Assembly: GCF_037042905.1 (NCBI RefSeq)
Contig: NC_087245.1
Span: 3,536,001-3,600,000, forward strand
DNA from: Lytechinus pictus
Lineage: Eukaryota
DNA: 64,000 nt
Direction of reading: 5' to 3'
The notes below the pieces were generated by a model that worked only from the letters and a program-made list of their open reading frames with translations, ran no database searches and was not told the origin of the DNA. The position numbers and the translations under genes were made by a program. Below, in pieces: positions 24,979 through 64,000 of the stretch. Every line of letters starts with the position of its first letter. The first letter of the stretch is position 1.

Positions 24979-27198
24979 TAGTGGGTTTAGCCATGATAGT
25001 ATTTAACGGTCTGAGAATTATCTGTTTACTAACCTAGTAAAAACCAAGTGGATACAAAGCTAGCAATTACATTTGTTGTAACAAAAACACAAATATCTAT
25101 GATATGATAAATTAAAATTCTAAATTTATGAGTTAAGATATTTTCATTGACTTCCCTATTTTCTATGGATGTTTAATGCAGTAATGGGATTGCTTTACTT
25201 GTAGTAGATCCAGGCAGAGTTTCAGGTGTGTTTTCTTTCTATTGTTGTAGAATACAATCTAAAAGAAATTGACCAATGCCCCCCTGTCATTTTAGAATTA
25301 AGCTTATACAGTCTGTTTTATTCAAAGTTCTTCCCTTTGGAATGTAATATATATCATTATTCTCAGCAGATATATTTATGATGATGAAATAAAAAATTGT
25401 ATGATAGTAGTATAGTTCAAATTCATAGATAACAAAATTGCCTTCAAGGTACACGTTTTATATTGTATTTGCAATACACTCTGGATAGACTTCATTAGTC
25501 ATATTGACTCAAATGTAATTAAGACAAATATTTGTCCAGAATATTGGACAGGATCCCACCAAATTTTGCCTTCAAGTTCAAGAAAACTTAAGATAATAAT
25601 GCATGAAGGAGTGCTGTATCAATCATTATGTTTGTATACAAACAAACTGTGCCATATTCTTTGAAATATTTTCACATATTTAAAATAATGGATATTTATT
25701 TATTACTGCCACGCAAACAAAGTAAGTGGCGATATTAGTTTTGTCTGTATGTTTGCCAGTACGCTAGCATTTGAATTGTTCCAATTTAGTTCACCGGACT
25801 TTCAGGGATCCCTCATGTAAATTATTGCAATATAAAGTGTTAAGAAACATAGTTTATTCAGGCAGCGCTATATGAATGTAATTATTATTATTAAGTAAAA
25901 TACAATTCCGTATTGAATTTCACAGTCACAGATGTATTTGCTTTTTTATATTTAATTATTTTGTATATTTTTCACTTTTGGCGCATGTGCAGTGCCAAAA
26001 CTCTTCTTGAACAAGACTTTACTATAATGGCTGTTTGCATTGCGCTTTAGCTGCAGCCACTGACAAAAATGTCCACCAAGACGATTGATTAATCAAGAAT
26101 GGTATGTATTTCATTGTGTGGTGTACAAGTTAACATTCATTTGCTACCTATTAGAAGTTATTTGATAAAATCAAGTTTAAATATCTATATCAAAGTAATT
26201 CTCAATCAAGTCTTGGTGTTGTTGTTTGTTGTTTTTGGTCAGTATAGGTCATGGTACAGAAGAGGTTATTGCCATTACTGTCATATACAAATACTGGGTG
26301 CACACATCCAAAGGAAGTTGTAACTATCGTACCTAGTCTTTTCTGAATTTAAACACTTCATGAAACATAGATTACTTAATGAATGTCATAATTTCATAGA
26401 GAGATATAAATCTGAGGTGAGTGGATGCCATGTATCACGTTAGCAAGGTGGTTTACTGTTGCTAAACAGTAGGCAATCTATCATGTTGTAAATTATAAAT
26501 CTATGAATAAAAAATGATTTATGAGGAATAGGCCTGATATATTCTATGGATTATTTGATGTGGTTTCTTGTTACCTTCTTCCCATTCCATATCCCTCTTT
26601 TTCACTACTTTATTTTCTTTCCCATTCCCTTCCCCTCCTCTATGTTGACTTTCCCCTTCCCTACCCACCCCCCCCCCCTCCATCTCTCCCCTCCCCTCTT
26701 GATTATTGATAGCAAAAGAATCCTATTAACATTTTAATCCCAGTTGTTGTTATGATGATGATGAGGATTATTATAAGTAATATTATTGTTAGTTATTTAT
26801 TGATTTGTTTATGTTATTTTATTATTTTCTTTTTTTTTGGCAGAGTCAATTACAATGATAAAAATAATTGTTCATTAACACAATAATAATACACTGGATA
26901 TCCACCTGGGTGAGCTGCCAGGCATTGGGCAAAGCTTACCAAATAATTATAGTCTGTCGACCGCCCATTTTCATGTGACGTAAACGTACCATACATTTGC
27001 ATTTAAAATTACACATCAAAACAAAAAGTTCATTTGCTTAGAATCAAAACATAAAGTCAATGTAAACAAAGATCAATAAATACACAGCATCACACATGCT
27101 GCTTTGTCAGATGGGGCTTGATGATTAAATACATTGGTGCATAACTAGGATGAAACATTTTTCTACAAACTATTGTTATTTTGATTGTTATATCTTAA

Positions 27199-27787
27199 AG
27201 GAGAATGAAACCCTTGAAACCAGCTGAATCCATATCAAAGAGAAAAATCAAAGAAACATATTGTTGAAAGTTTGAGGAAGATTGAATGAAAAATAAGAAA
27301 GTTATGAGCATTTGAATATTGAGATCACTAATGCCATGTAGATCCTCCCATTGGCAATGCGTCCAAGATCTGTGATGTCACACACGTACAACTCCCTCAT
27401 TACTAGTCTTTAGTACTTATTTCACTTATATTTTCACTTTTATAGAGTCTATCACAAGGTGAGGTGTTCTCTTTATGAGAGGACAAGTAAAGAGGTTTCA
27501 CAACATTATATAATTGATGAATCGTTTGTCATATGATTAGAATGAGCAAAAAGAGATATTTTGGGGTATATTTTCAGTGTCCAAAAGGGGAGAGTTGTTC
27601 ATCTGTGACATCATAGATCTTGGTCGCATTGCCAATGGGAGGATCTCCATAGCATTAGTGATCTCGACATTCAAATGCTCATAACTCTTCTATTGCTAGT
27701 CCTATTTTACTCAAACTTTTGTTGATCTTATTCTTTGATTTTTCTGCTTTCACAAAAGCTAACTTGCTCCAAGAGTTTCATTCTCCT
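27199..27787. mobile_element. Kolobok-type foldback element, family B
   Basis: TTAA|AGGAGAATGAAAC ... GTTTCATTCTCCT|TTAA; long internal inverted arms (gatcctcccattggcaatgcg / cgcattgccaatgggaggatc). Confidence 0.88.
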
Positions 27788-28842
27788 TTAATAGCAGAAG
27801 TTAGACAATGGAAGGCAATGTATAACAAAATATATTAGTTTGGCAAAATACAGAACATGTTTGCATCAAGAGCATGGGGGAGGGTACATGTTGCAACCTC
27901 TTTTGCTAGCTCCATGTAAAAATGAATGATTTTCTTTATGGATTAAATTGACCAAAAAAGTGACTTCTTCAGACTGGGCATGCTTTCATGAAATGCCTGA
28001 TGACTTATTTTGTAATAATGCTGGAACCAACCACAAATGTGGGCTCTGCTCCATTTTAATAACTGTTTTCATGACATTTCTTTGTAGGTGGTCCCCCACT
28101 ACCAAATCCACATGGCTGCCATAAACGTGTTTACTGAAAATTTATGAACGAACCAAACTAAACTGATAGGCCTATATCCTAAGACTTTCCCTACAGATGT
28201 GTCACCCGTATGAGTCATCTAAAAGCAACATTGTTCCGACGGCTTGTCAACTCTGCTTTGTGATCAATGGTAATATTTTAGGAAGAGCGCCATTTACGGC
28301 AGACGATGTAGTCGCACTCTCTGAGCTCAGCGTCTTGGAATGCGAAAGTCTCCATATATCTTCAAAATACTCTCTCTTTCTGGTCCGTTGTAATGTCTTG
28401 TTGATGGATACAGTTTGAAATATATTATGATTTCGATCATCCTAGGGTTTCGATTCACTTTGATTTAAGTAAACTGGTTTCAGACATTCAAACATAGGAA
28501 AAGTCTTTTTCTCCATGTGTCTAGTAGCAAGCTGTTAAAAAAAAGGTTGTTTGTATGGGGGACCTGTCTGGCAAACTACATTGCGTGTTTTCCGAAGCTC
28601 AAAGGAGACCAATCTATGAATTCTCTAAATCGTTAATTTTTGTTCAGTATCGAGCTACCTTTATTCTTTCGATACTCCTCCCAAACCAAAGAGAGTCAAG
28701 ACTCCAGAGGCTTTGGGCGGGGCAGGTGGAGAGGAGGAGGAGGAGAGAGAGTGAGGGGGGGGGGGCGTTGAGACTTCTATTGAGTAGACCTTAGCAAAAA
28801 GAAATAATACATTAGCCAGATTTTATATACCACATTGTTTAA

Positions 28843-29444
28843 AGGACAAGTCCAACCCAACAGAAAGTTGATTGGAATTAAAAGAGAAAAATCTAACAAG
28901 CATAACACTGAAAATCTTATCAAAGTCGGATGTAAAATAAGAAAGCTATGACATTTTAAAGTTTCGCTTTATTTCACAAAACAGTAATATATGCACATCC
29001 TGGTCGGTATGCAAATAAGGAGACTGATGACGTCATCCACTCACTATTTCTTTTGTATTTCATCATACGAAATATGAAATATTTCAATATTCTCCTCAAG
29101 TGAAACAAAGATTGATTCCCTCCCTGAACATATGGAATTGGCATTGTTTTAATACTAGATGGTTCAGTCAGGTTGATCCTTATTGTAAAATCTGTAAAAA
29201 ATGAAAGATTGTATATATCAAACAATAAAAAACAAAAGAAATAGTGAGTGAGGGACATCATCGACTCTCTCATTTGCATGTCACTGAGTTGTGCATATAA
29301 CTGTTTTGTGAAATATAAGCAAAACTTTAAAATGTCATAGCTTTCTTATTTTACATCCGATTTGGATGAAATTTTCAGCGTTATGCTAGTTTGATTTTTC
29401 TCTATTTATTCAAATCATATTTTTTTCTGGGGTGGACTTGACCT
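28843..29444. mobile_element. Kolobok-type family A element
   Basis: TTAA|AGGACAAGTCCA ... TGGACTTGACCT|TTAA; inverted relative to the 12616 copy. Confidence 0.88.
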
Positions 29445-29865
29445 TTAATGTAATTATATCGAACCGTTCATTGGTAAAACGCCAAAAAAAAACGAAGAGG
29501 AAAGAAGAGGGGGGGGGGAGAGATCAGAAGATGAATGCATGGAAGAAAAAAAAAGAAGCCATGAGATAATAATTGGCGATATGAATTATGAGTAACCCCA
29601 TATGATATGCTCAGGTGATCTACCATTTCTCTTGTCTGGAAATAAATAAATAAAAAAATACCAACGTGATAGATGGGATGAGTTGGGCTGATAAAAGTTC
29701 TGAACGACACGAACCGGGAAATAATCGGAAAATGATCCACTTCCTGATGTTTAGTTTACCTCAAGAATGTGTCACCGGTTTATTGTGTCAGAGACTGTTG
29801 GTCGGTTAGCGAATGAGATCCGGTCATCTTTAGCTTTGAAAGCTCATTTGATTTTGGATTAATTA

Positions 29866-30027: not shown

Positions 30028-31498
30028 TTACAGAGGGTTGATCGGTTGATTTATTGAGAAGGAAAGCTGGCATAAATAAACAGATTAAGCAATCGTTAAA
30101 GATTTATCCAGGAAAGTGTGAACTGTCATTGTGATTGATTGTTTAGGTTAAGGACTAACACTTTTTTCGATGACTGTTGGGCCTTTTTTATTTCAATCAT
30201 CCACGATTGTTATTTCCTCCAACCTCGATCATATCAATTTGCTTGAAATTACATAAAGTATATTTGTTTATAAAAAAAAGAAGGTCACACACTGGTACCA
30301 TGGACCTAGTAGGTCCATGCTGGTACAAACTGACGAATTCACAGAATCTTATTAGAAAAAGAGATTTCGTGCAGGTATACTGCATACAGAACTTTTTTTC
30401 ACCATTTGAAATCGTTTTTTTTTTTGCTGCATTTTGGTTAGTATCACTATGAATTTAGATATTTAAACACAAGTATTTAAAAACAACCAATAAAATAAAT
30501 GAAGGAATGCCAGATCCCACTGGTGTTGGCATAGACCTAAACTGATGTTGGGGATTTGGGCCATGGCTCCACCCATAATGTTGACCCCCCCAAAAAAGGA
30601 AAATGAGACAAAAGAGAAAGCAAATGAATTACATATGATTTTATCAACTAAACATATTGTTATATTGTATCACAAAATAATCTTTCCGTACCAAGTAAGG
30701 GCATAGTAGGTCCATGGTAAGGGCAAGCTCTTTGATAAACTCTCGCTTCGCTCGCTCGTAACATTTTGAACATTTTCCATCATACACCAAGTTTGGGGCC
30801 CTCAATTTTTTTTGGCTAAGTACGTCAGTACCAAACCCAAACAGTACAACCAAGAAAGAAATGTCCCAAAGATCAAAAGAACATATTTTGTTTCTTCATG
30901 CTCATAAAAAATCGATTTCGTTTTTGCCATGACATACTCATTATCAGTATACTCACAATTTCTGAATTAAAACAAAACACAAGCAAACAAATATTCTTCA
31001 TTAATGATTCCTGAGACAACAGGAGTGAATTGGAGACTAATGCTGCACAACATCACACCCTGTTCTCACGCAGATTAAACATGGGTTACTAGTTTACGTC
31101 AAACATTTAACATACGAACAACAATACACTTTGTTTAATAAGTCAAATTAGTGCCGGCATCACCACAGGTAGTCCGTAATACTATTTTGCAGGTATAATA
31201 GCTATAAACCCGCTTTATTTGACCTTCCCTCATCCTGTGCTTTCTTTGAATACTATAAAACAAAGGCCTATTAATCTTGAGTGGTGGTCAATGAACGCTA
31301 AGATGGATGCTTTAGATGCCACATAATCTTTAATCATGGAGCTATGTATAGCTCCATGGTAGTGTTACTTGTTGGTATACACGCGTGCATTCATCCCATC
31401 CAGCATTATCACAACCTATGCTCAACAGCAAGTAATTCAAGAACATCTATGGAAACAGCTAAGAACACAATTTTATTACTGTATGATTTGCTTCTGGA

Positions 31499-36302: not shown

Positions 36303-37200
36303 TTAATGGTATGAGCAGTGAATCACTAACAATTCCCTTATTTTATGAGGATGGCACTGTGCTTCAGCAGGTGATATGTGCATGGATGTTTTTCCAAAAC
36401 ATTCCTTTGGCATGTTAAATACAGGTGTTGAACATACCAAACAATAATGATTTATCTCTGTTGTATGATGAAAGTTGTGTATTATTGGGAGTTGAATCAA
36501 TTTTGTTAGCTTGATTTTACTTGCCTTTACCATCATTTTTTGTTGTTACTGTTTGAAATATCTACCTGTGCCCTGTAGCACAGATATAGCCTTTCATGTA
36601 TTATGTAGCTTTGTAGAAAATACACTGACACTTATACCAATGCCAGTGTCCCTTTTCAATCCTGGCATAGATGAGGAATTAGTCTTAAGAAGGATTAAAA
36701 GCATGTATTGTTATCTTAGAAATAGTAATCCATCTTTGCAATAACATAATTTACTAATACCTCAAACAGAGAAGGTGGATCTTAAGACTTTTTTGAAGAC
36801 CCACCAATCAGGGAACTCCCTGCTCCAGTGAATGCAACTGTAAGATATCCTTAACCAATTGACTTATGGCTCATTCATCCTAATCCCAAAGCACCAGTCA
36901 CTCATGTCTGAATAAACCAGCTTAAAAGCTACTTAGTTATACCACCTGTAATTAAAGGGGTGGTCCAGGCCAGCTCCAAAAAATATTTAGCCCGTAGTAA
37001 ATAATTACAGGAGCCATTTCAAAAAGTATTATCTCCTTACTCGACTTTGGAGATTTTTAAGAGCATTTCTTGTAACGGTTATTTGGGGCAAAAAGAATTA
37101 AATTTCGCGCACATGTAGCGAGATCGGTCACGTGACTGTGACGTACCATCTCCACTTTGGTTTCGCAACAATCCAGCGCGCGACGTCTCACAGCTGCAAT

Positions 37201-37575: not shown

Positions 37576-37990
37576 ATTAATTGTTCAAATTATGAAATAA
37601 ACGGCGAGAAACAAACAAATTGTGAATTACAGGGTCGACGGTGGCTGCAATCAATGCAAGTCGAAAACTACATGTAGCTAATACCGTACGTATGCGGCCG
37701 GCGCTGATGATCTATACGCATACGTACGTGCGAGCGATAGCTAGCTAGCTAGCTAGCTCGCTCGCGCTCGTAGCAGCAGCCAGCGAAGCCAAAGTGGAGA
37801 TGCTACGTCACAGAAAAAGCTGCGCATTGCATTCTGGGATCGTACAGACTCGTGCCAGAATATGATTTTGGCAAAATTGAAAATTCAATAAAAAATAACT
37901 GTGCCTCTTATAAATTAAACCTGGCCTGGACCACCCCTTTAATGGATTTGATAAGATTTTGAAGCACAGGAGCCTCAAAGGTGTCTTTAA

Positions 37991-38489
37991 AGGGGAAGTT
38001 CACCCTGACAAAAGTTTGTTGTAAAAATAGCAGAAAATATAATTAAAACTATTGCCGAAGGTTTGAGAAGAATCCATCATAGAATAAAGAAGTTATTATA
38101 CTTTTAATTATTTGATTTGTGATATCATATGCGAGCAACTTTCCTACAATTATCATAAGGTAAATAAAATCAATGAAATGTAGTTTTTCAGAAAATAATT
38201 TTTTACTGTACCTTCAGTATATCATTGGGCAAATTATTTCACTCATGTTCCTAAAACGAAAACAAAAATAAGTCATCATGATGAACCATTACAAACTTGA
38301 AATTTATGCATTTTATATTATTACATAACATATGTGGCAGCTGCTCGTTTATGATGTCCCAAATCCAAAACTTAAAAATCCAATAACTTTCTTTATCTTT
38401 AATGGATTTTCCTCAAACCTTCACAAATATTTTAAAATATTTTTTCTACTATTTTTACTACAAGCTTTTCTTCAGGGTGAACTTCCCCT
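37991..38489. mobile_element. Kolobok-type family C element, copy 2
   Basis: Same TIRs and TTAA TSD as 35798-36302, same orientation. Confidence 0.9.
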
Positions 38490-38825
38490 TTAAGATGAAC
38501 TAGATCTCCATGAGAAGCCTACTTCACTGTACCTGTCTAAATGATACTAAATTGAATATTAAAGGCAAAGGGATCAGTCACTACACTGTACCTTAATAAA
38601 GCGGGTGGCTATGTTAGCATAATTTTGAATAAGATCATAGAGTTTGTTACATTAATTGCACATTTTCCATAACTTTTCCATAATCATGATTCTTGGAGAA
38701 GGGGAAGGGGGTGGTCTCAAAATAATGAGGAATCTGACTGTTTACACTTGTCATGATTTGAAATTCATTACTTCTCTCAGTGCATCATCAATATCCTCGT
38801 GATATTGTGAAAGGAACTTCTCCAT

Positions 38826-39303: not shown

Positions 39304-41904
39304 CATGAGAACTATTTTGAACTGTATCTTATCAGGGTTTGGATATGAGAAAGATTCATGATCTACACCTGTCTTATACCTGGACCCCTTCAAGATTCCA
39401 GTGCCAACAGGTCAAGTTTATTTTCATATCTCAAGAATTCCAACCATTTTTGGGTACAGTCAAAAGTATGAAAGCAACTTGGACATTTAGCAAAAGAAAA
39501 CGAAGAAGAAATACATACTTAGTTAATAACGTTTTGTACGCTGCATACGCCGATCTACATGAGCCAAAGCATCATTTACACTCTATTGTGTTGTTTGAAT
39601 TTATAGTTTGAAAACTACAGTAACATCATATCTATCAGGTTCAAGCGAATTCATTTTAGTGGGCATTAGCTATCATTAATCATTTTGGTTTATAGCAAGA
39701 AATCAAGAAAAACAAGTCCATAAAACCGTGATTAAGAATTCATATTCCATTGATATTTGTCATTTTAATAATATTTTTGTGCCAGTGAAATTCAGAAAGG
39801 CCATTCACTTAGGATTTGTTATAGTGTCCCTGAATGTTGAATTGGTAAAAATCAACTGTACTTTTTTGTGACCAAGGTGAAATGTCTACTTTTTAGTGAA
39901 TTAAGAAATCGTACACAATTTTTTTTCAACTACTCAAGTAAAGTGCATACTAGAGGTATTTTGAGATTTGAGGTTGTGTTTATTGTCAATGGAATATCAT
40001 GTGGTTTAGTTCACAAAGAACTTTGCTTGAAGAAAAGCATTCATGCAGACTCTACTACTCATACAACCTGGAGCGTTTTCACAGCCTAGTCAAATAAAAT
40101 ACCTTCTAAACCCTCCCAAAACCTTTCTAAAATCCTCCAGGATTGCCTCACAAAATATGTATCCTCACAAACACAGGGAGGAAAGAGAAAGTGCAGGTGG
40201 TCATACTGTATTTGGATAATTTTCACCAGTCAGAACTCCAGAAGCCGTACACTTGTTACAGGGAATCCTGGAGGATGCATGGCAGCTTCAGTTGTTCAGT
40301 GCTGATGGCAAAGGTGCTTTTGGTAAGAAACTAAAGACTGAACCGTTTTTCATTTGAGAAACATCTATTCGGGAAGGGAGCAAACTTGGCACTGTGTTCT
40401 CATCCAAGCCCTGAAGCTGACAAACACTTTAGTGTAGAGAGAAAGTATAGGTCTTTGTTGCACTTGTCAAATTATTTGCACTCCTCTCTCTTTTTATATC
40501 TCAATCCTCCTCCCTCCTCTTACATTGTGGTCACCTAGCTGTCTTTAATATCCTTATGTCACAGTTCAATTCTGCAGTTTACTACAACATATTGATTTAT
40601 GTAATAACTGATGGTTTGGTTGAGGAAATTTCACCTTTGGTCATTTTTTTAAATGGCCAATTGTGATAATTTTGTTACAATATATTTTGTATGTGATTGT
40701 AGCAGTTACAAGTTGCAAACCAATTGTAAAAGCCCACGTAGTGGGCTAAAATGAACACAGTCAAATAAAAACAAACCCAGAAGTTTTTTCACATTCTTCC
40801 TTGTTTTGTTTCAAACTCTAAATTTCCTGTTATGAGGCGAGACATTAAGAATCTGTCGCCTCTCACTCTCCTGTTTCTTTAAAACTTTTGTGAAAATAAA
40901 AAAATATTGTTATTCAGTCAACTGGTCATATCTCCAGACAAAACATCCTCTTCTATGAAATTGTAATTCCAGGGACTCCCTGGTTATTCCAAACCCATTT
41001 CCTGAATTTGAGCTTCTGTGGCAAAAAATATGGATTGCTATGTGAACAAAATTAATAAACATCATTTAATCAATAGTCATAACTACTTTAATTCAGCAGA
41101 TTTATTATGCCAATGTCATTGTGTGGGAAAACACACAGGCACCCACTTAGCATGTACCATACATTTTTTCATGGAATTTTTAATGTCAATTTTTTTATAT
41201 TAAAGATGAAAGTGTTACTTCCATTTGAGAAAAAAAACCTTAAATTTGTCCAACTTGCTTCAACCATTTCCCCCTGCATTATGATCTACACTTTAGTTAA
41301 TGTTTGCCTTTACCCAAAAGGTGGTGGGACTCATAAAACTTTAACAAAGAATCTTTTCAAAAATACCAGACAAGAAGGTCAATATTTAGATTAAATCTGG
41401 AGCATAAATGCAGGCTTGAAATGGAATTAAATGGACATTTAATCTTCTCTTTGAAAGAGAAGATTTCAAAGTTCAAGTATTTGTCAATAATGTCCTTTTG
41501 TTGGAAGAATTTTGGAAATGTATTAAAATTGTAAGTTCAGATTCATGTACATGTATGATGTCTGGGTTGAGAAGGATAATCCCAATGTGGGTAGACAGAC
41601 ACACTTGACAGGGATGGCTAAAGTCAATATTTAGACAGGTTTTCATGGACAGAATGTTTTCTCTCTAAACATAACCAGATTGTAGGAGTAAAGTCAGTAA
41701 ACTTAATGAAACATCTCATGTCCCTGATTTGATTCAAACATGGATCCTAAGTACTAGCTAGAACCATGATTTAAATAAGTTTTTTTTTTTTTGGAAGAAA
41801 TATGTAGGCCTGTTTTCACAGTGAATCTAGCCCCTGATGTCCTTGCAAAAGCCTTTCAAAAATGTTTCCTTTAGATTTATGGTGCAAAGTAAATTAATTC
41901 TGGC

Positions 41905-42310: not shown

Positions 42311-45300
42311 TTCTGGCTTTGTGTAACACATTATAGAAAGTTGTGGGTAGCTGTGCTGTCTTCATCCCCCATACAAGTTTGTATGTCAAGTTGGAACTGA
42401 AATTTTCAGACAGTTGCTTTGGCACTTTTGTAATAGCTAGGTCATCTATGGTATAACTTACACACAATTATGCTCATGGCTCTCTGGAGAACCATTTGGT
42501 GACCAGATGCCACCATCTGAAGTGACCCAAGTCAAGATTTATCGCGAAGGAAAAAGGAAATGGCTCCAAAGAATATTTGTTGAAAATGAAGAATATGGTA
42601 CTGCCACGTCAGGTACATTGAGGACTATATAGCTAGGATAGGTCTTTGAAATAGGTTGAATGAGAATGTAGTCATGTAGGCTTGGTCTGCAGGTAGTCTT
42701 GAATTACCTTTAGATTATCACTTGGTAATTGAGTTTTAGAAAGAAAAAAAAAAATGCATGAATGTCAAAGCCTATATGCATTATGGGCATGGTTTTTATA
42801 TCTCTCTAATTGTAATCAAGCAAGTCAATATGAATTTTGAGCATTTTGATGATTTTGAACTATTCACATGATTGGAAAGGCATTCCTGTATTGAATGTAG
42901 GCTACATGAATTAAACATGTTCACCTTCCAAGTTCTGATCACAGTCAATGACCAAATGGGAATCACTGTACCCAAGGAGATCTCCTTGCTATACCATACT
43001 TATTTACTCTTTTTTAAACATATTTAATCATTGATCAATATAAAATGAACATAAAAATCTCTGTCTTCATCACTGTCTTATATGTCTGAATTCATGATAT
43101 TACCCCCAAATACACCAGACTACCCTGAAATAAAATAGATAGCGGTAAGGCATATCGTTTGTCATGTAGTTGCAACTTGTAAAATGTGTAAGGACACTCA
43201 ATATTTCTGTAATTTGCACACCTATGAACAGGAAACAAACTGCTAAGGAACAATAGAGCCTACAAGATTTTCTTTGAAGCATAAAACCACTATTTTCCCC
43301 TCATAATGAGCAGCCAGTGCCCTAAGGGGTCTAAACAAGCCTGAGAAAAAAGAAATAATATCAGGGTCAAATGCAGGTGACATTATAGGATCCATTCAGA
43401 CGAGACAACAATTTGAACTTGAACATTTATTTGTAGAAATAAGAGCATACAGTACACTCAAATGCAAAAATAAAAAGATCTATGAATATTTATTACCCAT
43501 TAATTAACAAACACCATTTGAAATTATTTTAATGAGGTCAGATCACATGAATTCTTTACCTTCATGACTAATTTGTTCTATACTTAATACAGAGAGGGTG
43601 GATGATTTACTCTGTCTGAATAAACCTCTATAAAATGAGAGGAATAACTATGAGCAGAACCTGTGGCATTGTTGGTATGAAAGATTGTTTCCTGTGGAAT
43701 AGGAAACAACTCCATTCACTGGACAAATTGATTATGCATGTAAATTAAGTACTTAACTCAGAAGAAAGAAACAAATCATAGACCCTACAATTTTGTGTAG
43801 TGAAATATTCTGTGAGACAGTTACATTTAGGCCTAAACCTACATATTGTTATTGTACATTGTAGGTAGAAATTAATATTTATCTATTTATTGATGTAGCA
43901 ATTTTCATGTGGTATTTTACTGCTGTGCAAGAGTTTCCATGATGAAAAAGTACTTTGGAGATATGTATTATAGTGATGTGAAGTTAGTTTTGGGAACATT
44001 TTATATGAATATTCAAGACAGTCATTTGAAATGATAGAGGTTTTGGGCAGTGGGAAAATTATTACTTCTATAAAGGTTCCTTAGCTATTTAGAAAATTAG
44101 TCTTCATTCTCTCAAGGATGTTGAAACAATTATATTACAAATATCTTGACAGAATATATATATATTATGGCACACTACTTGGTTTAGTTGGGTCCAACTT
44201 CAAATTCAAGAAAAAAAAAAGGTGCATGAATTCACCAATTTCATGCCGCATCTCCTGTATAGGCTTTGCACTGTTTACAGCAACAGTACATGCATCATTG
44301 ACATTACAAGGAATGAGTCTACTCTAAATTCTTCTAGATTTTATTTGTAATTTTGATTGTTTTACTTAATGTTATACTGATGCTTTTGATAAATGTAAAT
44401 TTATGATATGGGCTAAACCTATTTGTATTGATTGGAAGTTGTCTTATTTTTTTTTATGGATAAGTCTGATAAGAAATTAGAATACTTATTTGCTTGCAAT
44501 GGTAGTGTTCAATTGTTCTCTTTATAGGACAATACATGTACCTCTTTTTTCTTCTTTGTCTTGTTTGTGCTCAGTAGACCTAGAACTTGATATCAACCTG
44601 TTCTAAAGTCCTTGGCCCTTTTTGAGGTGCATTTCTCATCTTGATTTACTGAAACCACCCACCATATCAAAGTGGTTTTAGAATATTTGTTCATATCAAT
44701 TCAGAAGTCACCTTAGCTTACAGTCAAGTTTAGCAGAACAATAATAGAATAGCAAGACCTGGGGAATAATTCTTTTCTTCCTGCTCATGCAAGGTTGTCC
44801 AAATTGTTACAAGGTATTGTCCCAGATCTGAAGCACAAATGGTTGTCATGGGAAGTTGTAAAAAAATCATAAAGGAAGTCTCACTTTTAAGATGCCGTCT
44901 ACTGAGTAGGTGGATGACTTCTCAGTGTAGTTGTGAGAAATGTGACAATGTTTTGAAAGCCTGAAAAAGATTTTATTTTTTGGCCTGGGTTCAAGAATAT
45001 TCTTGAGGCGTCTAGGTAAATAGAGAATAGGACTGAGAGTAGAAGTTGGCAGATGCAGCTCGCCAGTCAAGATTTGTGAATGGATGCCGTTGACTTTTGG
45101 CTTCAAATGTAGCACCCAGAACATTTATTGAACTGTCTGGAGAATCAGGGAGGTGGGTTCTGCAAACATCATTGCAAAACCTTGGCCTTGCAACTTGTTT
45201 TAAAGTTTATCAAGGTGAATAAAACAAATTTGTGGTGTTTCTGTCTCGTCACTTTTTATTACCTTTGCTTGGCAACATTCATAAGAAAATATAAAAAGAG

Positions 45301-48103: not shown

Positions 48104-49485
48104 CAGGCGCGGATCCAGGAGTGGGCCGAGCCGGCCCCGGCCCACCCCCCCCCCTATTTTTTGGCAACCTGCAGAAAAAGTGTACTCTTTAACTTGATAG
48201 AAACAATGAAAACAAAAGTAAGAAAGAGGTCTTTTACCCATGTTGTGTAATTTACAGCCTCGTAACGGCCGGCCCGACCCCGAAAGGAAACGAAAAAAAG
48301 GTGAGGGGAAGAATTGAAAAATAGACTTTATATAATTTTTTTCGCTCGTGCTTTGCGCTCGCATTACCTGTGTAATGAATCTCACTCAAGAGAACTAAAT
48401 GGCACTTAATATATCCAGTTCTGACATCAATTTGCACACAATATTTTAGCTCGCACATCAAGCTCTCATTATTTTGTTTTCAGCTCGTGCTGCGCGCTCG
48501 CATTGTTTGATTTGTGAGATACCTATCCTCTTTGGGAATTCTTACCAAAATTTCTCAAAATTTCCCTTTATCATGTCAATATATCAAAAATTTAAGATCG
48601 CGCTTTGCGCTCGCATTTAATTGTTTGAGACACACAGCTTGTTCTTTATTTAAATTAAAACGCGCTTAGACTGTCCAGTTTTCAGGTCGGAATATTAAAA
48701 AAATTTGAGCTTGCGCTTCGCACTCTCATTATTTAATTGGTGATACTTGTATCCTCTTCATTAATCACTAAAAACAGTACCATTTTAGGCCCTTTTCACG
48801 TATTAAAATTTCGGCTCACGCTTCGTGCTCGCATTGTTCAGTTGGAAACCTATCTTTTTCACGATTATAGAAACTGCTCAGAATCTTCAGGTCTTTCAGG
48901 TCTAAATACATGAAATATAAAAAAAAATGAGCTCGCGCTTCGCACTCGGATCAGTTATTCAGTTAGATGGCTGTCCTGTTCATGATTTAAAAAAATGCTT
49001 AGAATATCCAGTTTTCAGTTCGGATTGTCAACCATTTTCAGCTCGCACTTCGCGCTCGCATTATTTGTTTGGTGATATGTTTATCCTCTTCATTAGTCAC
49101 TAAAACAGTCCTATAAGTTTCTTTTCACGCTAAGCCTACTATACTAAAAATTTGGCTCGCGCTTTGCGCTCGCATTGTTTAGTTAGATCTTTGTTCATGA
49201 TTATAAAACCTGCTCAGAATCTTCAGGTCTAAGGACACAAATATCAAAGAATTTGAGCTCACGCTTTGCGCTCGCATTATATATCAAGACCACATGAGAT
49301 ACTTTATATCTTGTTCATAACAATAAAAACTAACAAATACTTAAAACATCAGTCTTTAGTTAGGACTACCCCATGAAAAACCAACCCCCCCCAAAAAAAA
49401 AAAAAGATTATAGCGGCCAATAGAGAAAAATGTTGATGAAAGTATTTTTCGGCCCCCCTATTGGTGAAAGCTGGATCCGCCCCTG
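48104..49485. mobile_element. ~1.4 kb non-autonomous TIR transposon with 5-bp TSD and an internal tandem array
   Basis: TCAAC|CAGGCGCGGATCCAG ... CTGGATCCGCCCCTG|TCAAC; about 9 units of ~110-130 bp, each with gctcgcgcttcgcgctcgcatt. Confidence 0.85.
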
Positions 49486-52400: not shown

Positions 52401-55400
52401 TTCTTCCAGAGGGGCAAATAAAGTGAAGTCTGTGCATCGATCTTGCCACCTCACACCATTCTACATCCATTGACCTGCTGTTATAAACTCTGCTTTTATC
52501 TTATCCCTAACCAGGCCATTTTCATGTTTGTTTCAAAGAATATATCTTGGGTTCAGGTGAGTTTCTTGGTGGGGGAGGGGCGGGTTAAAGTTGAGCTTAA
52601 TGTAGGCCTAAGGCAAATGTCTTGCTTGGCCAAAACTTTGCACCAGGCAAAGAGGTGATTCGGGTTTGATCACGGCTGAAACTCAAGAAAGAAAAGGTTT
52701 GGGCTGGCCCAAATTCACAGACGTAAATCTGTGACGTCCCCCCCCCCCCAATCCATAGGTCATACATTGTACATGCACAGTTATGATTACGGTTGGGGTA
52801 AGGTAACTTAGGTTTTAGCTCAGTGTTTTGTTCTGAGTCCTAAAGGAGCTTTGCAGTTTTATGACTTCTGACAACTATAATGTATTTGGCCAGACCAATA
52901 GCTCTATGGCCAGACCAGTACTCTGTAAATGTGAAAGACTCGCTTCAGGTAGATTTTGGCATGCCAAATTATGAGTGAGATGCAGAGTATCTTTCATAAT
53001 TTCTCCCACTGGTACTTCCACAAATTACTAGTATTGTTGTTAATTGTACATGTACATATGAATTCCCTGCATGTGCTTGCTAAAACCCATGGCTAATGTG
53101 TGACCATAGAGCTATAGCTCCATGGTGTGACTAATGAAAATTGAAATATCAAGTGAATTTGTGTTAGAAATCAGAATTGTTCACTGTGTTCTAAAGAGGA
53201 CTTGCATTTCTGGTTCATAGTTTTACATTTCCAAGTGCAACTGTGATGACTGATTCCACCATTATTTACAAACTGATATGGTGTATCTTTTAAAGTGATT
53301 AGTAAGATTTAGTGGGATTGATTTTGTTTATCAGCAGACAGTAGGTATTAAGTTTGTCACTGTTTAAATAACCTAAGCAAATACATTTAGAATGATTTCT
53401 TTTAAAAGTAATTATTTTTTGAACCCCCTAATCATCCAATGTACTTACAGTATGCTTATGTGTATGTTTGTGCTAACTAAATAAAACAATTGCTTAATCA
53501 ATGGTAACTTTAGATTAAAATGTTAAATCAAAGTTGATGGTAGGGTATGTTTTTATGGCACTAGGTTTGGACCATCAACTAAGTGGTGCAGGTGAGGTTA
53601 TACTCGCATTTGGACACTGTTATTCATGAGATAAGATAATTGAGTCATAAGGATGATGTACTTTATTGTGGTTGGTGTTCCTGGAAGTGTGGAGGCTGTT
53701 TAGGTTCCTGTAATGCCTAAAACTTGTTATCCCACAGGGTGGTGCAAAGGAAATATTAATCCCTCAGATGCAAATCTCAGAACATCTTTTCCTTACCCAG
53801 GTTTATGCTTGTGCCAATCATAAAGTAATATGTATTATTATTTAGTGTGTAATAACAAATATCAGCAACACCATCCCTTTTTTTAACAAGACAGGTCAGA
53901 CAATTTGTAGACAAAGCAGTTGACTTAATGTATCAAGAAAAGGGGAGAATGTTTGCTCAAGCATTATTGTCATTAACATTATGATTTAATTGTTTAGAAA
54001 GATTTTATGGACAAAGCTTGAATGTCATAAGAACTAAAAACTACTATTTTGCACATATTTTATGCTCCTCTTTCACTTAGCACTAATAGGGGGGGGGGGC
54101 ACTTCCACTCCCCCCCCCCCCCCCGGGAAAATTGTCAAACTTTCTTATGTTACTAATTGGGATTTGCTGACTTCATCATTTTAAGTTCTTATTATCATGT
54201 GCATAGAAGATTTAGGGATGTCACAAAGTCAATCTACAAGACTTGTGATTTTTCAGTTGTTGCTTTCAACCATAAAATGGTCCATTTATCAGGTCGTTAG
54301 CAAGACAATAAAAATCTTTTGTCATTTTTTGTGATTTCATAGGAGCATCAAGGATAGCTCGATGATGTTATTGTGCTGAGCTCTCCATGCTACATGGTTT
54401 TCAAATGAGACACTTCAAAGGTAGCCTACCTCTTTTTAATGATGGGCTATGAAATCTTGATTTCTTAAGGTTGAACTTTTGACCTTATGATATGCTTGTC
54501 TTACATTAATCATATACAATTTGATGACATTTGTATTTATTTGATCCAAGCCTTCATATTAACCTTGATGTTTGTTGAAGATCAATGCCCCTTTTCAGGT
54601 AATGTTAACCTGACATTCCATGAGTTTCTAGTTTTGACTCTCAAGTTTAAACATGAATTAGGGTACATGCAGCACACAGATCTAAATCCTAAAGTTGAGA
54701 TGATTTTGTTTTTGTAATAATTTATGATAATATTTGTATAATGAGCTACCAAATACATCATGAACACAAAACCATAAACAATCTTAATTAAACAGATATT
54801 TGACCATTTATGAAATTAATAAAGTCTATTGATTTTTGTATGAACCACCAACTGCATGTGGGCTTACCCTGTTTCATCTCATCAGCTAGCCTAGCAGGAA
54901 ATCTGCTTGTAAAACCCTGAAACCGAGAAGCGGTCCTTGACAATATATTGTGAACCCTCATTTATACTTCCTAAGACTAAGAGTCTTTTGTTTAAAACTT
55001 TTAAGATTTGCAGCACTTGAAGATTTATAACAATGATTTCGCCATCCAGAGTCACATCAACCTAAAAGCATTTAATCATGCGGAGCAGTGCGGGTCAGAC
55101 AGATATCAGGCTTTGAAAATCATAATGAAAGAAATGTTCCAATCATTGAGTTTGATTAGCGCGATTGAGTTCAAAGTACTAGAACTAGATGTATTACCAT
55201 TATTGTATTTTGTTTCTTTAATCATTCAGGAATAAAAAGTGCAGATGAATCATTTTCACTCAATTCTGTCCTATAACATTGCTTTGTGATCTAACTAACT
55301 ATTGAAAACTATATTGTTGGCCCAAGATAAAAGTAAAATGGTTCACACATGTAAGCCCAATATTTCCCAGTGTTTCCTTAAACAATCAAGAGATACTTAG

Positions 55401-62740: not shown

Positions 62741-64000
62741 ACATACTCTAAAGCTGAAATTAGAATACCTGATTTTCTCTGATCGGGCATCTGGGTTGCC
62801 TGTTTTCTGACCTAGCAAATATTGAATTGCGTATCTTGTCTGTTACCTGCGTCCCACACCAGTTTGCATGCTCATAACCTCTGAGAATTTATTCTGAAAG
62901 GGTCTGGGTCAGATGGCTATGAATGTGGAATATAGTTATTGAAAATCTTGATTCCTTAACAAGGTTTCATAAGGTAAATTTTTGTTTGAGTAGAGTGCTT
63001 AGAGTTAGATGGAGTGAGGGCTATAGAGAGTGAGAGAGAAAAGGGGGGTATTTGTGGTGCAATGTGGCTTTATTTCAATCAGTGGAATAATTATATCTGG
63101 ATCTTTGTGTTATCATGTCTGATATGATGTCAAAATATTTTAACATTTCTAATCCATTGATATACATTTGAAAAACATGTTTCTCATTCCTTTTACCCAC
63201 CATTCAATCACGGTTCTATAATGCTTCTCTTTGATTCGATAATCAATGTGTTCTTAAAAAAAGTTTATGATTTAGCAAGTTCACTACCCTGTTCCTTTAA
63301 TGTCCTTTAACATTTATGTTTGCATGGCATTTTATACTGCCCAGCCTGGTTTGCTAAATTTGTTTCATTGAAATGAAAATACAGAAGAGGTGACCTACAC
63401 CCATCCTGATTCTTATTTGATCCTTGCATCTATCTACATGATGATATTATTTTGTTTGTCACTGTCAGTCCCAAGTATTCTTCAGACTTTTCATTTGATT
63501 ATTTATGAAGTTATGCACCTGTGTCATGTTTGTCTGTAGTAGAGTTCAGATGGAATCTTACTTCTTAAATTAGGAGTTGGTTTGAAGTTTATATTTAATT
63601 AATATATTTGGTTATGCGAGGTAAAACCCTAATTTGTAAATTCCATGATATAAAGTTTAACTCCTGACAGCAACATATGCAATATTTTTTAACAATTTTG
63701 TTGATGTTTTAAGTCTACATGTATCTTCCACTATAGACCTATTAATCCTAGGTCCATGCTTCTACAAAGTGACTTTGCGCTATGTAAGGCCACCACCGTA
63801 ACAAGGTCGAGTTTACCCCTGTCCCTAGTTGATGAGAGGGGACAAGTCAATTAAAATTCAGAATATGATATAGAAATCTGAACATTATTTGAACCATATT
63901 TTGATCTTGGGAATTAAAATTGAAAAATTGAAATTGAAGATATAAGGTTCCATGACATTTGCTCCAGCGACAATGGCTCCGTTCTTAATTCCACACACTA

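What the first reader, a model, noticed from the sequence alone, without database searches (positions are those of the whole stretch)
30292..30326. P-element-like excision footprint: 21-bp palindrome between perfect 7-bp duplications
Seen: CTGGTAC|CATGGACCTAGTAGGTCCATG|CTGGTAC. This is the clearest of at least six such structures in the window (30292, 30695, 41732, 52889, 53098, 63725). All have CAT(A/G)G...C(C/T)ATG-type ends, 13-30 bp inserts and 7-bp flanking direct repeats. Known: P-superfamily (THAP9-related) transposons begin with CAT and make 7-8 bp TSDs. They excise with long 3' overhangs that leave TIR remnants at the donor site. Inference: these are repair scars of an unannotated P-like family, about 1 per 10 kb here and too short for repeat maskers.
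Basis: partly seen in the sequence, partly recalled or inferred. Interest (0 to 1): 0.72.

Follow-up and report, generated by a model that had tools for sequence, protein, structure and literature searches.

The report
Excision scars of P-like transposons
These tiny palindromes between short duplications are most likely scars left when relatives of the fruit-fly P element cut themselves out of sea-urchin DNA; scars with the same ends occur in another animal, so such genomes keep a readable record of past jumps and of how the breaks were mended.

Summary
30292-30326 is a 10+1+10 palindrome between perfect 7-bp repeats. The 10-mer CATRGASCTA occurs 11 times against 0.3 expected, and 6 of the 8 loci holding it have a 7-bp duplication with at most one mismatch. 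The anatomy matches experimental Drosophila P excision junctions: intact duplications, uneven stubs of both ends, joined on 1-4 nt microhomologies or filler. The same 10-bp ends turned up in animal-like metagenome contigs, there with 8-bp duplications (47 of 92 site clusters perfect; 0 of 54 prokaryotic matches). Paralogous host repeats show single-copy empty sites at 5 sites. In one family there the long stub stops at 17 nt, the P-element stagger. Not shown: any full-length element or transposase with these ends, or an orthologous empty site in the urchin. A close relative keeps the 30695 scar, breaks off exactly at the 31335 scar, and does not span 30292. P membership is therefore inferred, about 0.7. 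The scan noted this reading before in the same genome (e1-7810740). New here are the cross-animal ends, the empty sites and the 17-nt cap.

The parts
30292..30298 (.). left copy of the 7-bp target-site duplication
30299..30319 (.). focal scar, GACCTA end family; reads as a 10-nt left stub and a 14-nt right stub sharing a 3-nt microhomology
   Evidence: the end beyond 10 nt is fitted from this scar, matched independently for 13 nt by 30695 and consistent with the +3-nt variant
30320..30326 (.). right copy of the 7-bp duplication
30523..30551 (.). candidate lopsided scar (10-nt stub, 3 filler, 2-nt stub), duplication with one mismatch; weaker
   Evidence: covered in organism A with substitutions at 30539 and 30548
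30695..30723 (.). scar, GACCTA family, 5+13 stubs overlapping by 3, perfect 7-bp duplication; shared with organism A
   Evidence: records 3, 13, 20, 27 span it
31335..31358 (.). scar, GAGCTA family, no duplication; organism A diverges from the window exactly at its first base
41732..41775 (.). decayed or third-family scar of 30 nt, duplication with one mismatch
52889..52915 (.). lopsided scar, GAGCTA family, 2+11 stubs, perfect 7-bp duplication
53098..53131 (.). scar, GAGCTA family, 20 nt (12+12 stubs on a 4-nt microhomology, or 10+10 blunt), perfect 7-bp duplication
63725..63765 (.). older scar, GACCTA family, 10+7 filler+10, first base C>T, duplication with one mismatch
27907..27916 (-). lone exact 10-mer, no partner end or duplication found; half-scar or chance

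Best explanation
These are donor-site scars of cut-and-paste DNA transposons of the P superfamily (1360/Galileo-like 7-bp duplication in this sea urchin). (1) An element with CATRGA(C/G)CTA... ends inserts and duplicates 7 bp [shown: duplications, target motif; empty sites shown only in the other animal]. (2) The transposase later excises it with a deep staggered cut, leaving a long 3' single-stranded tail of each end on the flanks [inferred from the P mechanism and from stub lengths: at least 13-14 nt here, up to 17 nt in the other animal]. (3) The tails are trimmed and joined on short microhomologies or with filler, as in polymerase-theta-type end joining [inferred from the junction types]. 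(4) The scar lacks internal transposase-binding sites, stays put and decays [inferred; one scar is shared with a relative about 6% diverged].
For: Enrichment. Same anatomy as sequenced P junctions in Drosophila (PMC2895639 Tables 1-3); the 17-nt stagger is called unusual to P (PMC7776569). 7-bp duplication with GTTNAAC motif for 1360, 8-bp GTCCGGAC for P (PMC3276498); the window's seven duplications match GTnnnAC at 18 of 28 positions, p 3e-5 (motif chosen after the fact). Insert sequence is shared between sites with unrelated duplications, so it comes from the element, not the flank. Metagenome contigs: perfect 8-bp duplication in 47 of 92 site clusters against 0-2 for other lengths 4-10, 0 of 54 prokaryotic matches. 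Ends of unlike families are never paired, 0 of 118. Single-copy empty sites in paralogous repeats for 6 of 74 queries, 5 distinct sites. 57 distinct duplication-flanked sites fall into 23 junction types; in the GACCTA family 8 of 9 keep one 17-nt arm, and the four sites that run on past it continue with A, A, T, C. Lopsided scars (2+11, 5+13, 10+2; L083 16+0). Many other loci of organism A carry the focal palindrome with unrelated flanks: depth 12-21 times single copy, loose ends on both sides. No longer element with these ends in the window.
Against: No full-length element and no transposase with these ends were found. No orthologous empty site in the urchin: 30292 is not spanned, 30695 is shared, and at 31335 the relative diverges but into other sequence, not a single 7-mer. 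GTnnnnAC targets are also used by hAT elements such as hobo. One 26-mer makes up 28 of 48 GAGCTA sites in the other animal, and the focal 21-mer recurs in organism A, as a mobile micro-element would. The 17-nt end is fitted to the scars themselves, rests on 9 sites of one family, and the scan only admitted inserts up to 32 nt; for the GAGCTA family 13-17 nt cannot be told apart. 68 of 74 empty-site queries found nothing.
Confidence: 0.72

Rival explanations
1. Excision scars made in the same way, but by a transposase outside the P superfamily that also cuts deep inside its ends.
For: No transposase is linked; the cleavage chemistry of many superfamilies is unknown; 8-bp GT...AC targets are shared with hAT.
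Against: CAT ends, both 7- and 8-bp duplications and a 17-nt cap together match only P among the systems read. hAT, Transib and MULE hairpin the flank and piggyBac the element end (PMC5499845), so none is expected to leave 10-17 nt of element end.
Confidence: 0.1
2. Ultra-short non-autonomous elements (20-26 bp micro-MITEs) that are themselves mobilised and make their own duplications.
For: One 26-mer in 28 of 48 sites; the focal 21-mer recurs at 11 or more other loci per run of organism A; ends are never mixed; L061 has scar-like units at both ends of a 223-bp insert with one 8-bp duplication.
Against: 23 junction types in 57 sites, lopsided and one-armed forms with intact duplications. The dominant 26-mer is what two self-complementary 17-nt tails would give. 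Drosophila junctions also recur (14 isolates of one type). All 8 window scars differ.
Confidence: 0.08
3. Extreme internal-deletion derivatives made by aborted gap repair from a sister template, not by direct joining of cleavage tails.
For: Aborted synthesis followed by end joining is the usual outcome in wild-type flies (PMC2895639) and leaves both ends and both duplications.
Against: It predicts a range of lengths; the window has 7-8 forms of 13-30 nt and none of 46-20000 nt, and one family stops at 17 nt. The metagenome scan could not see longer forms.
Confidence: 0.08
4. Chance hairpins, or hAT-type footprints made of inverted flank sequence.
For: Short palindromic words are generally over-represented in this window; prokaryotic genomes hold the palindrome by chance or as hairpins.
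Against: the inserts share sequence with each other, not with their flanks.
Confidence: 0.02

Closest known systems
Drosophila P-element excision junctions (17-nt 3' tails joined by end joining; PMC2895639 Tables 1-3 seen, PMC7776569 passages seen)
   Same: Both duplications intact; CAT...ATG stubs of both ends; 1-4 nt microhomologies, blunt joins, filler; lopsided forms; up to 17 nt in the GACCTA family of the other animal.
   Different: Natural, fixed and dense (about 1 per 9 kb) rather than recovered from lab crosses; 7-bp duplication in the urchin; different end sequence; urchin stubs seen only up to 13-14 nt; transposase not identified.
1360/Hoppel and Galileo (P superfamily, 7-bp duplication; PMC3276498 and PMC3698922, passages seen)
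   Same: 7-bp duplication; GT...AC target motif (1360: GTTNAAC).
   Different: No footprints described in the passages read; end sequence not compared; no protein to compare.
Zebrafish Pdre2 / THAP9 (PMC10983969, first 10,000 characters and passages seen)
   Same: Deuterostome P-like element with short (13-bp) CAT-starting terminal repeats, excisable by THAP9; the paper says sea urchins have THAP9-family genes.
   Different: 8-bp duplication; different end sequence after CATA; its excision products showed larger flanking deletions.
hAT / MULE / Transib footprints (PMC5499845, passages seen)
   Same: Small palindromic scars; hAT has 8-bp GT...AC targets.
   Different: Those arise from hairpins of flanking DNA and leave no long element stubs; here the palindrome is element-derived and the flanks are intact.

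Membership tests
P superfamily | P-type transposase (THAP, GTP-binding insertion, RNase H core) in an element with these ends | not testable with these tools
   No genome held; 83 of 132 long ORFs of the metagenome loci gave no transposase; two THAP-seeded searches gave only non-P urchin proteins
P superfamily | 7- or 8-bp target-site duplication | tested here: met
   7 bp in the window, 8 bp in 47 of 92 metagenome clusters; literature
P superfamily | Terminal inverted repeats starting CAT | tested here: met
   P and Pdre2 ends start CAT. The motif CANRG is recalled; none of 15 listed papers held it
P superfamily | Palindromic GT...AC target motif | tested here: met
   18 of 28 positions, p 3e-5; G 0.61 at position 1 and C 0.61 at position 8 in the 8-bp set, W 0.73 three bases out. 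Not exclusive: hobo is alike
P superfamily | 17-nt staggered donor cleavage | tested here: inconclusive
   Fits the GACCTA family of the other animal (8 of 9 sites), fitted on the same data; urchin stubs reach 13-14 nt in 8 scars
P superfamily | Subterminal THAP-binding sites, GTP dependence | not testable with these tools
   needs the full element and biochemistry
Excision footprint | Empty site with one copy of the duplication | tested here: met
   5 distinct sites in paralogous repeats of the metagenome loci; not obtained for any urchin site
Excision footprint | Allele or ortholog holding the full element at the same site | tested here: inconclusive
   Organism A diverges exactly at 31334, but only 16 letters are seen and they are not an element end
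hAT footprint | Palindrome derived from the flank, no element stubs | tested here: not met
   Inserts are shared between sites with unrelated flanks
MITE family | Copies uniform in length and sequence | tested here: not met
   8 different forms in the window; 23 types in 57 sites, though one type holds 28

The most novel reading that the evidence does not exclude
An undescribed, widespread P-superfamily lineage with conserved CATRGA(C/G)CTA ends, in two matched sub-lineages, is or was active in distant animals, with 7-bp duplications in sea urchins and 8-bp in another animal. Its germline excision scars are fixed at about one per 10 kb, so genomes alone reveal each family's cleavage stagger (17 nt as in Drosophila in one, perhaps shorter in the urchin) and the host's end-joining spectrum. 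Scar pairs may also mark composite units that moved host DNA (L061) and joins between two insertions that deleted it (31335).
Probability: 0.4. Interest if true: 0.7.

Novelty: new variant of a known kind. Interest (0 to 1): 0.52.

Why it matters
P excision junctions are known from fly crosses and cell assays. A natural, dense archive of them would let one test from sequence alone whether the odd 17-nt stagger is general in the P superfamily, count past transposition where the elements are gone, and read germline break-repair habits in animals without genetics. The scars are also a source of 20-37 bp insertions too short for repeat libraries, and good polarised markers. The mechanism itself is known, which caps the surprise.

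Tried and rejected
No whole genome was held, so the genome-wide regex could not be run. Full-length elements: none in the window at 46-20000 bp; a relaxed search of the window and 118 loci gave only the L061 composite and three weak window pairs that I rejected as chance. Self-BLAST found no paralogous host repeat around the window sites. Viral contigs: 0 matches. A family search on the metagenome loci was not possible. A Pfam scan of 83 of 132 ORFs of 130 aa or more (prokaryote-like loci and duplicate frames left out) and 4 window ORFs found no transposase. THAP-seeded protein searches returned one protein each, neither annotated with P domains. Runs found for 30030-31480 had small word shares; I laid 4 of 7, all contigs; 30280-30400 has no orthologous cover, which proves nothing. 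A broad scan for other CA...TG scar families gave 5 sites against a mean of 1.7 and a maximum of 5 in 40 simulations, so the two extra candidates are not claimed. The flank clustering merged a few distinct sites (e.g. L005 with L010), so 92 is a slight undercount; 21 of 92 clusters had no duplication, some of them bacterial. Kolobok was considered and set aside: the KolobokP footprints described are small flank deletions (PMC9587614 passages), and its TTAA target is recalled. The 90-bp polymorphic palindrome of Spadella (PMC2997562 passages) is longer and could not be compared.

Full report
Observation. The focal site is as described: a 21-nt insert with perfect 10-bp arms between two copies of CTGGTAC. 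Of the six sites listed, three fit the strict pattern, one has a perfect repeat but a 2-nt left stub, and two have one mismatch in the repeat. I found two more: 30523 (one mismatch) and 31335 (no duplication). CATRGASCTA occurs 11 times against 0.30 expected. Of the 8 loci with an exact 10-mer, 4 have a perfect and 6 a near-perfect 7-bp repeat, against 1.4% and 11% at random positions. The consensus came from these sites, so the independent data below carry more weight.

Host. The window is 34-35% GC, mostly non-coding and rich in small transposons. A THAP fragment at 37142 is 100% identical over 36% of its length to a Lytechinus pictus protein, and earlier notes call this genome a sea urchin. 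No assembly was held.

Anatomy in the window. There are two end families, GACCTA (30292, 30523, 30695, 63725) and GAGCTA (31335, 52889, 53098); 41732 is decayed or a third family. All eight inserts differ. With ends fitted from the scars, 30292 is 10+14 nt overlapping by 3, 30695 is 5+13 overlapping by 3, 53098 is 12+12 overlapping by 4, 52889 is 2+11 blunt, and 30523 and 63725 carry filler. The 14-nt end is fitted on 30292 itself, but 30695 matches 13 nt of it independently, and two contigs of organism A carry a variant with three more letters behind 30305 that makes a symmetric form. The seven duplications match GTnnnAC at 18 of 28 positions (p 3e-5, motif chosen after the fact). No longer element with these ends lies in the window.

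A close relative. I laid 4 of 7 listed runs (contigs, at most 3 samples) of organism A on 30030-31480. They cover the locus at about 6% substitution divergence (49 in 819 bases, record 13). Over the focal palindrome the depth rises to 12-21 times single copy, with loose ends on both sides, so many other loci hold the same palindrome in other flanks. The 30695 scar is spanned without a gap in all four runs, so it predates the split. At 31335, contigs of three runs (two samples) leave the window exactly at 31334, one base before the scar, and go on into 16 letters not found in the window. The scar is absent there, but this is not a clean empty site; a flanking deletion or a join between two insertions would explain the missing duplication (inference). 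No contig spans 30292.

The same ends in another animal. In 92 flank clusters, 47 have a perfect and 9 a one-mismatch 8-bp duplication; perfect repeats of 4, 5, 6, 7, 9 and 10 bp occur in 2, 0, 1, 1, 1 and 0. L005 and L010 (35-38% GC) have perfect 7-bp duplications. The duplication-bearing contigs are non-coding (median long-ORF cover 0.0 in 46 loci against 0.90 in 52 prokaryotic loci), and contigs of this set carry MH1, PIG-U and TRAF domains, so I read them as animal DNA; the 8-bp duplication and higher GC argue that it is not this urchin. As a control, 0 of 54 matches in prokaryotic genomes have a 7- or 8-bp duplication within one mismatch. The two end families are never mixed in one scar (0 of 118). 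Modelled empty sites were found in paralogous repeats for 6 of 74 queries, 5 distinct sites, at 70-85% identity.

Stub length. Among 57 distinct duplication-flanked sites, the 9 GACCTA sites give 6 junction types. Eight keep one 17-nt arm, the four that run on past it continue with A, A, T and C, and lengthening the fitted end beyond 17 explains nothing more. The 48 GAGCTA sites give 17 types; 28 are one 26-mer that is 13+13 blunt or 17+17 annealed on 8 self-complementary bases. A 17+13 join (L031), a 17+17 join on 2 bases (L004) and a 16+0 half scar (L083) favour long tails but do not fix the length. Caveats: the ends are fitted to the scars, the sample is small, and the pattern admitted only inserts of 20-32 nt.

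Mechanism and comparison. P transposase cuts with an unusual 17-nt stagger, and the donor break is mended by homologous repair or end joining (PMC7776569, passages). The sequenced junctions in PMC2895639 (passages and Tables 1-3) show intact duplications, uneven stubs, short microhomologies, filler, and recurring types, as here. P makes 8-bp and 1360 and Galileo 7-bp duplications (PMC3698922, PMC3276498, passages), with GT...AC motifs (also PMC2577343, passages), but hobo has a like motif. hAT, Transib and MULE hairpin the flank (PMC5499845, passages), which does not leave element stubs. So it works like a P excision scar (about 0.8 for a long-tail scar of any transposase), while membership of the P superfamily (about 0.7) lacks its main test: no transposase or full element with these ends was found. 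The recurrence of a few junction forms and the L061 composite keep a mobile micro-element alive as a minor rival.

Novelty. Nine paper searches (listings and abstract starts only, except the nine papers named in this report) showed no report of natural genome-wide P-type scars or of these end sequences; for I saw 40 of 218 listed papers, none on transposons. The library lacks most subscription journals and Repbase, and I read no supplements, where such ends could be listed. The scan itself noted this reading in the same genome (e1-7810740), with a count of thousands that I could not test. Verdict: a real feature, a new variant of a known kind, interest 0.52.

Noticed in passing
L061:639-861: A 223-bp insert that begins with a scar and ends with a decayed scar, flanked by one 8-bp duplication inside a host repeat whose other copies are empty: possibly a composite unit whose two elements later excised.
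   Followed up: partly
window:40963-40989 and 42966-42995: Two further palindromes (13 and 16 nt, CAGGG and CAAGG ends) between 7-bp repeats with one mismatch; may be scars of other families but within chance.
   Followed up: partly
window:36952-37600: A TTAA-AGG end followed by a frameshifted THAP frame and an opposite Cys-rich frame; looks like a Kolobok-type element (architecture recalled). THAP supported by an L. pictus homologue; no Pfam hit on the pieces.
   Followed up: partly
window:12612-13210, 27194-27791, 28838-29448, 37984-38493: About 500-600-bp elements with long inverted ends starting AGG inside TTAA, several related families; Kolobok-like MITEs by recall.
   Followed up: no
window:15072-15877: 806-bp element with 164-bp inverted arms at 93%, TA-flanked CAGTG ends, Tc1/mariner-like by recall.
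   Followed up: no
   Followed up: no
window:23908-24176 and 48338-49291: A near-perfect 32-bp tandem array (8.4 copies) and a diverged array of about 110-bp period.
   Followed up: no
L033:1583-1608, L063, L084: The scar sits at the centre of a long perfect palindrome (up to 1582 bp arms); an assembly or amplification artefact, or sister-end fusion at the excision break.
   Followed up: no
L001:1058, L009:2327, L031:1113: Lone exact 10-mers running into unique sequence; possible ends of longer elements, no partner found.
   Followed up: partly
L120-L170 (Latescibacterota and relatives); L119/L150: A conserved 28-nt hairpin with the same arms but no duplication in many bacterial genomes, and two direct copies of a related palindrome 6.8 kb apart in a deltaproteobacterial contig; unrelated to the scars.
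   Followed up: no
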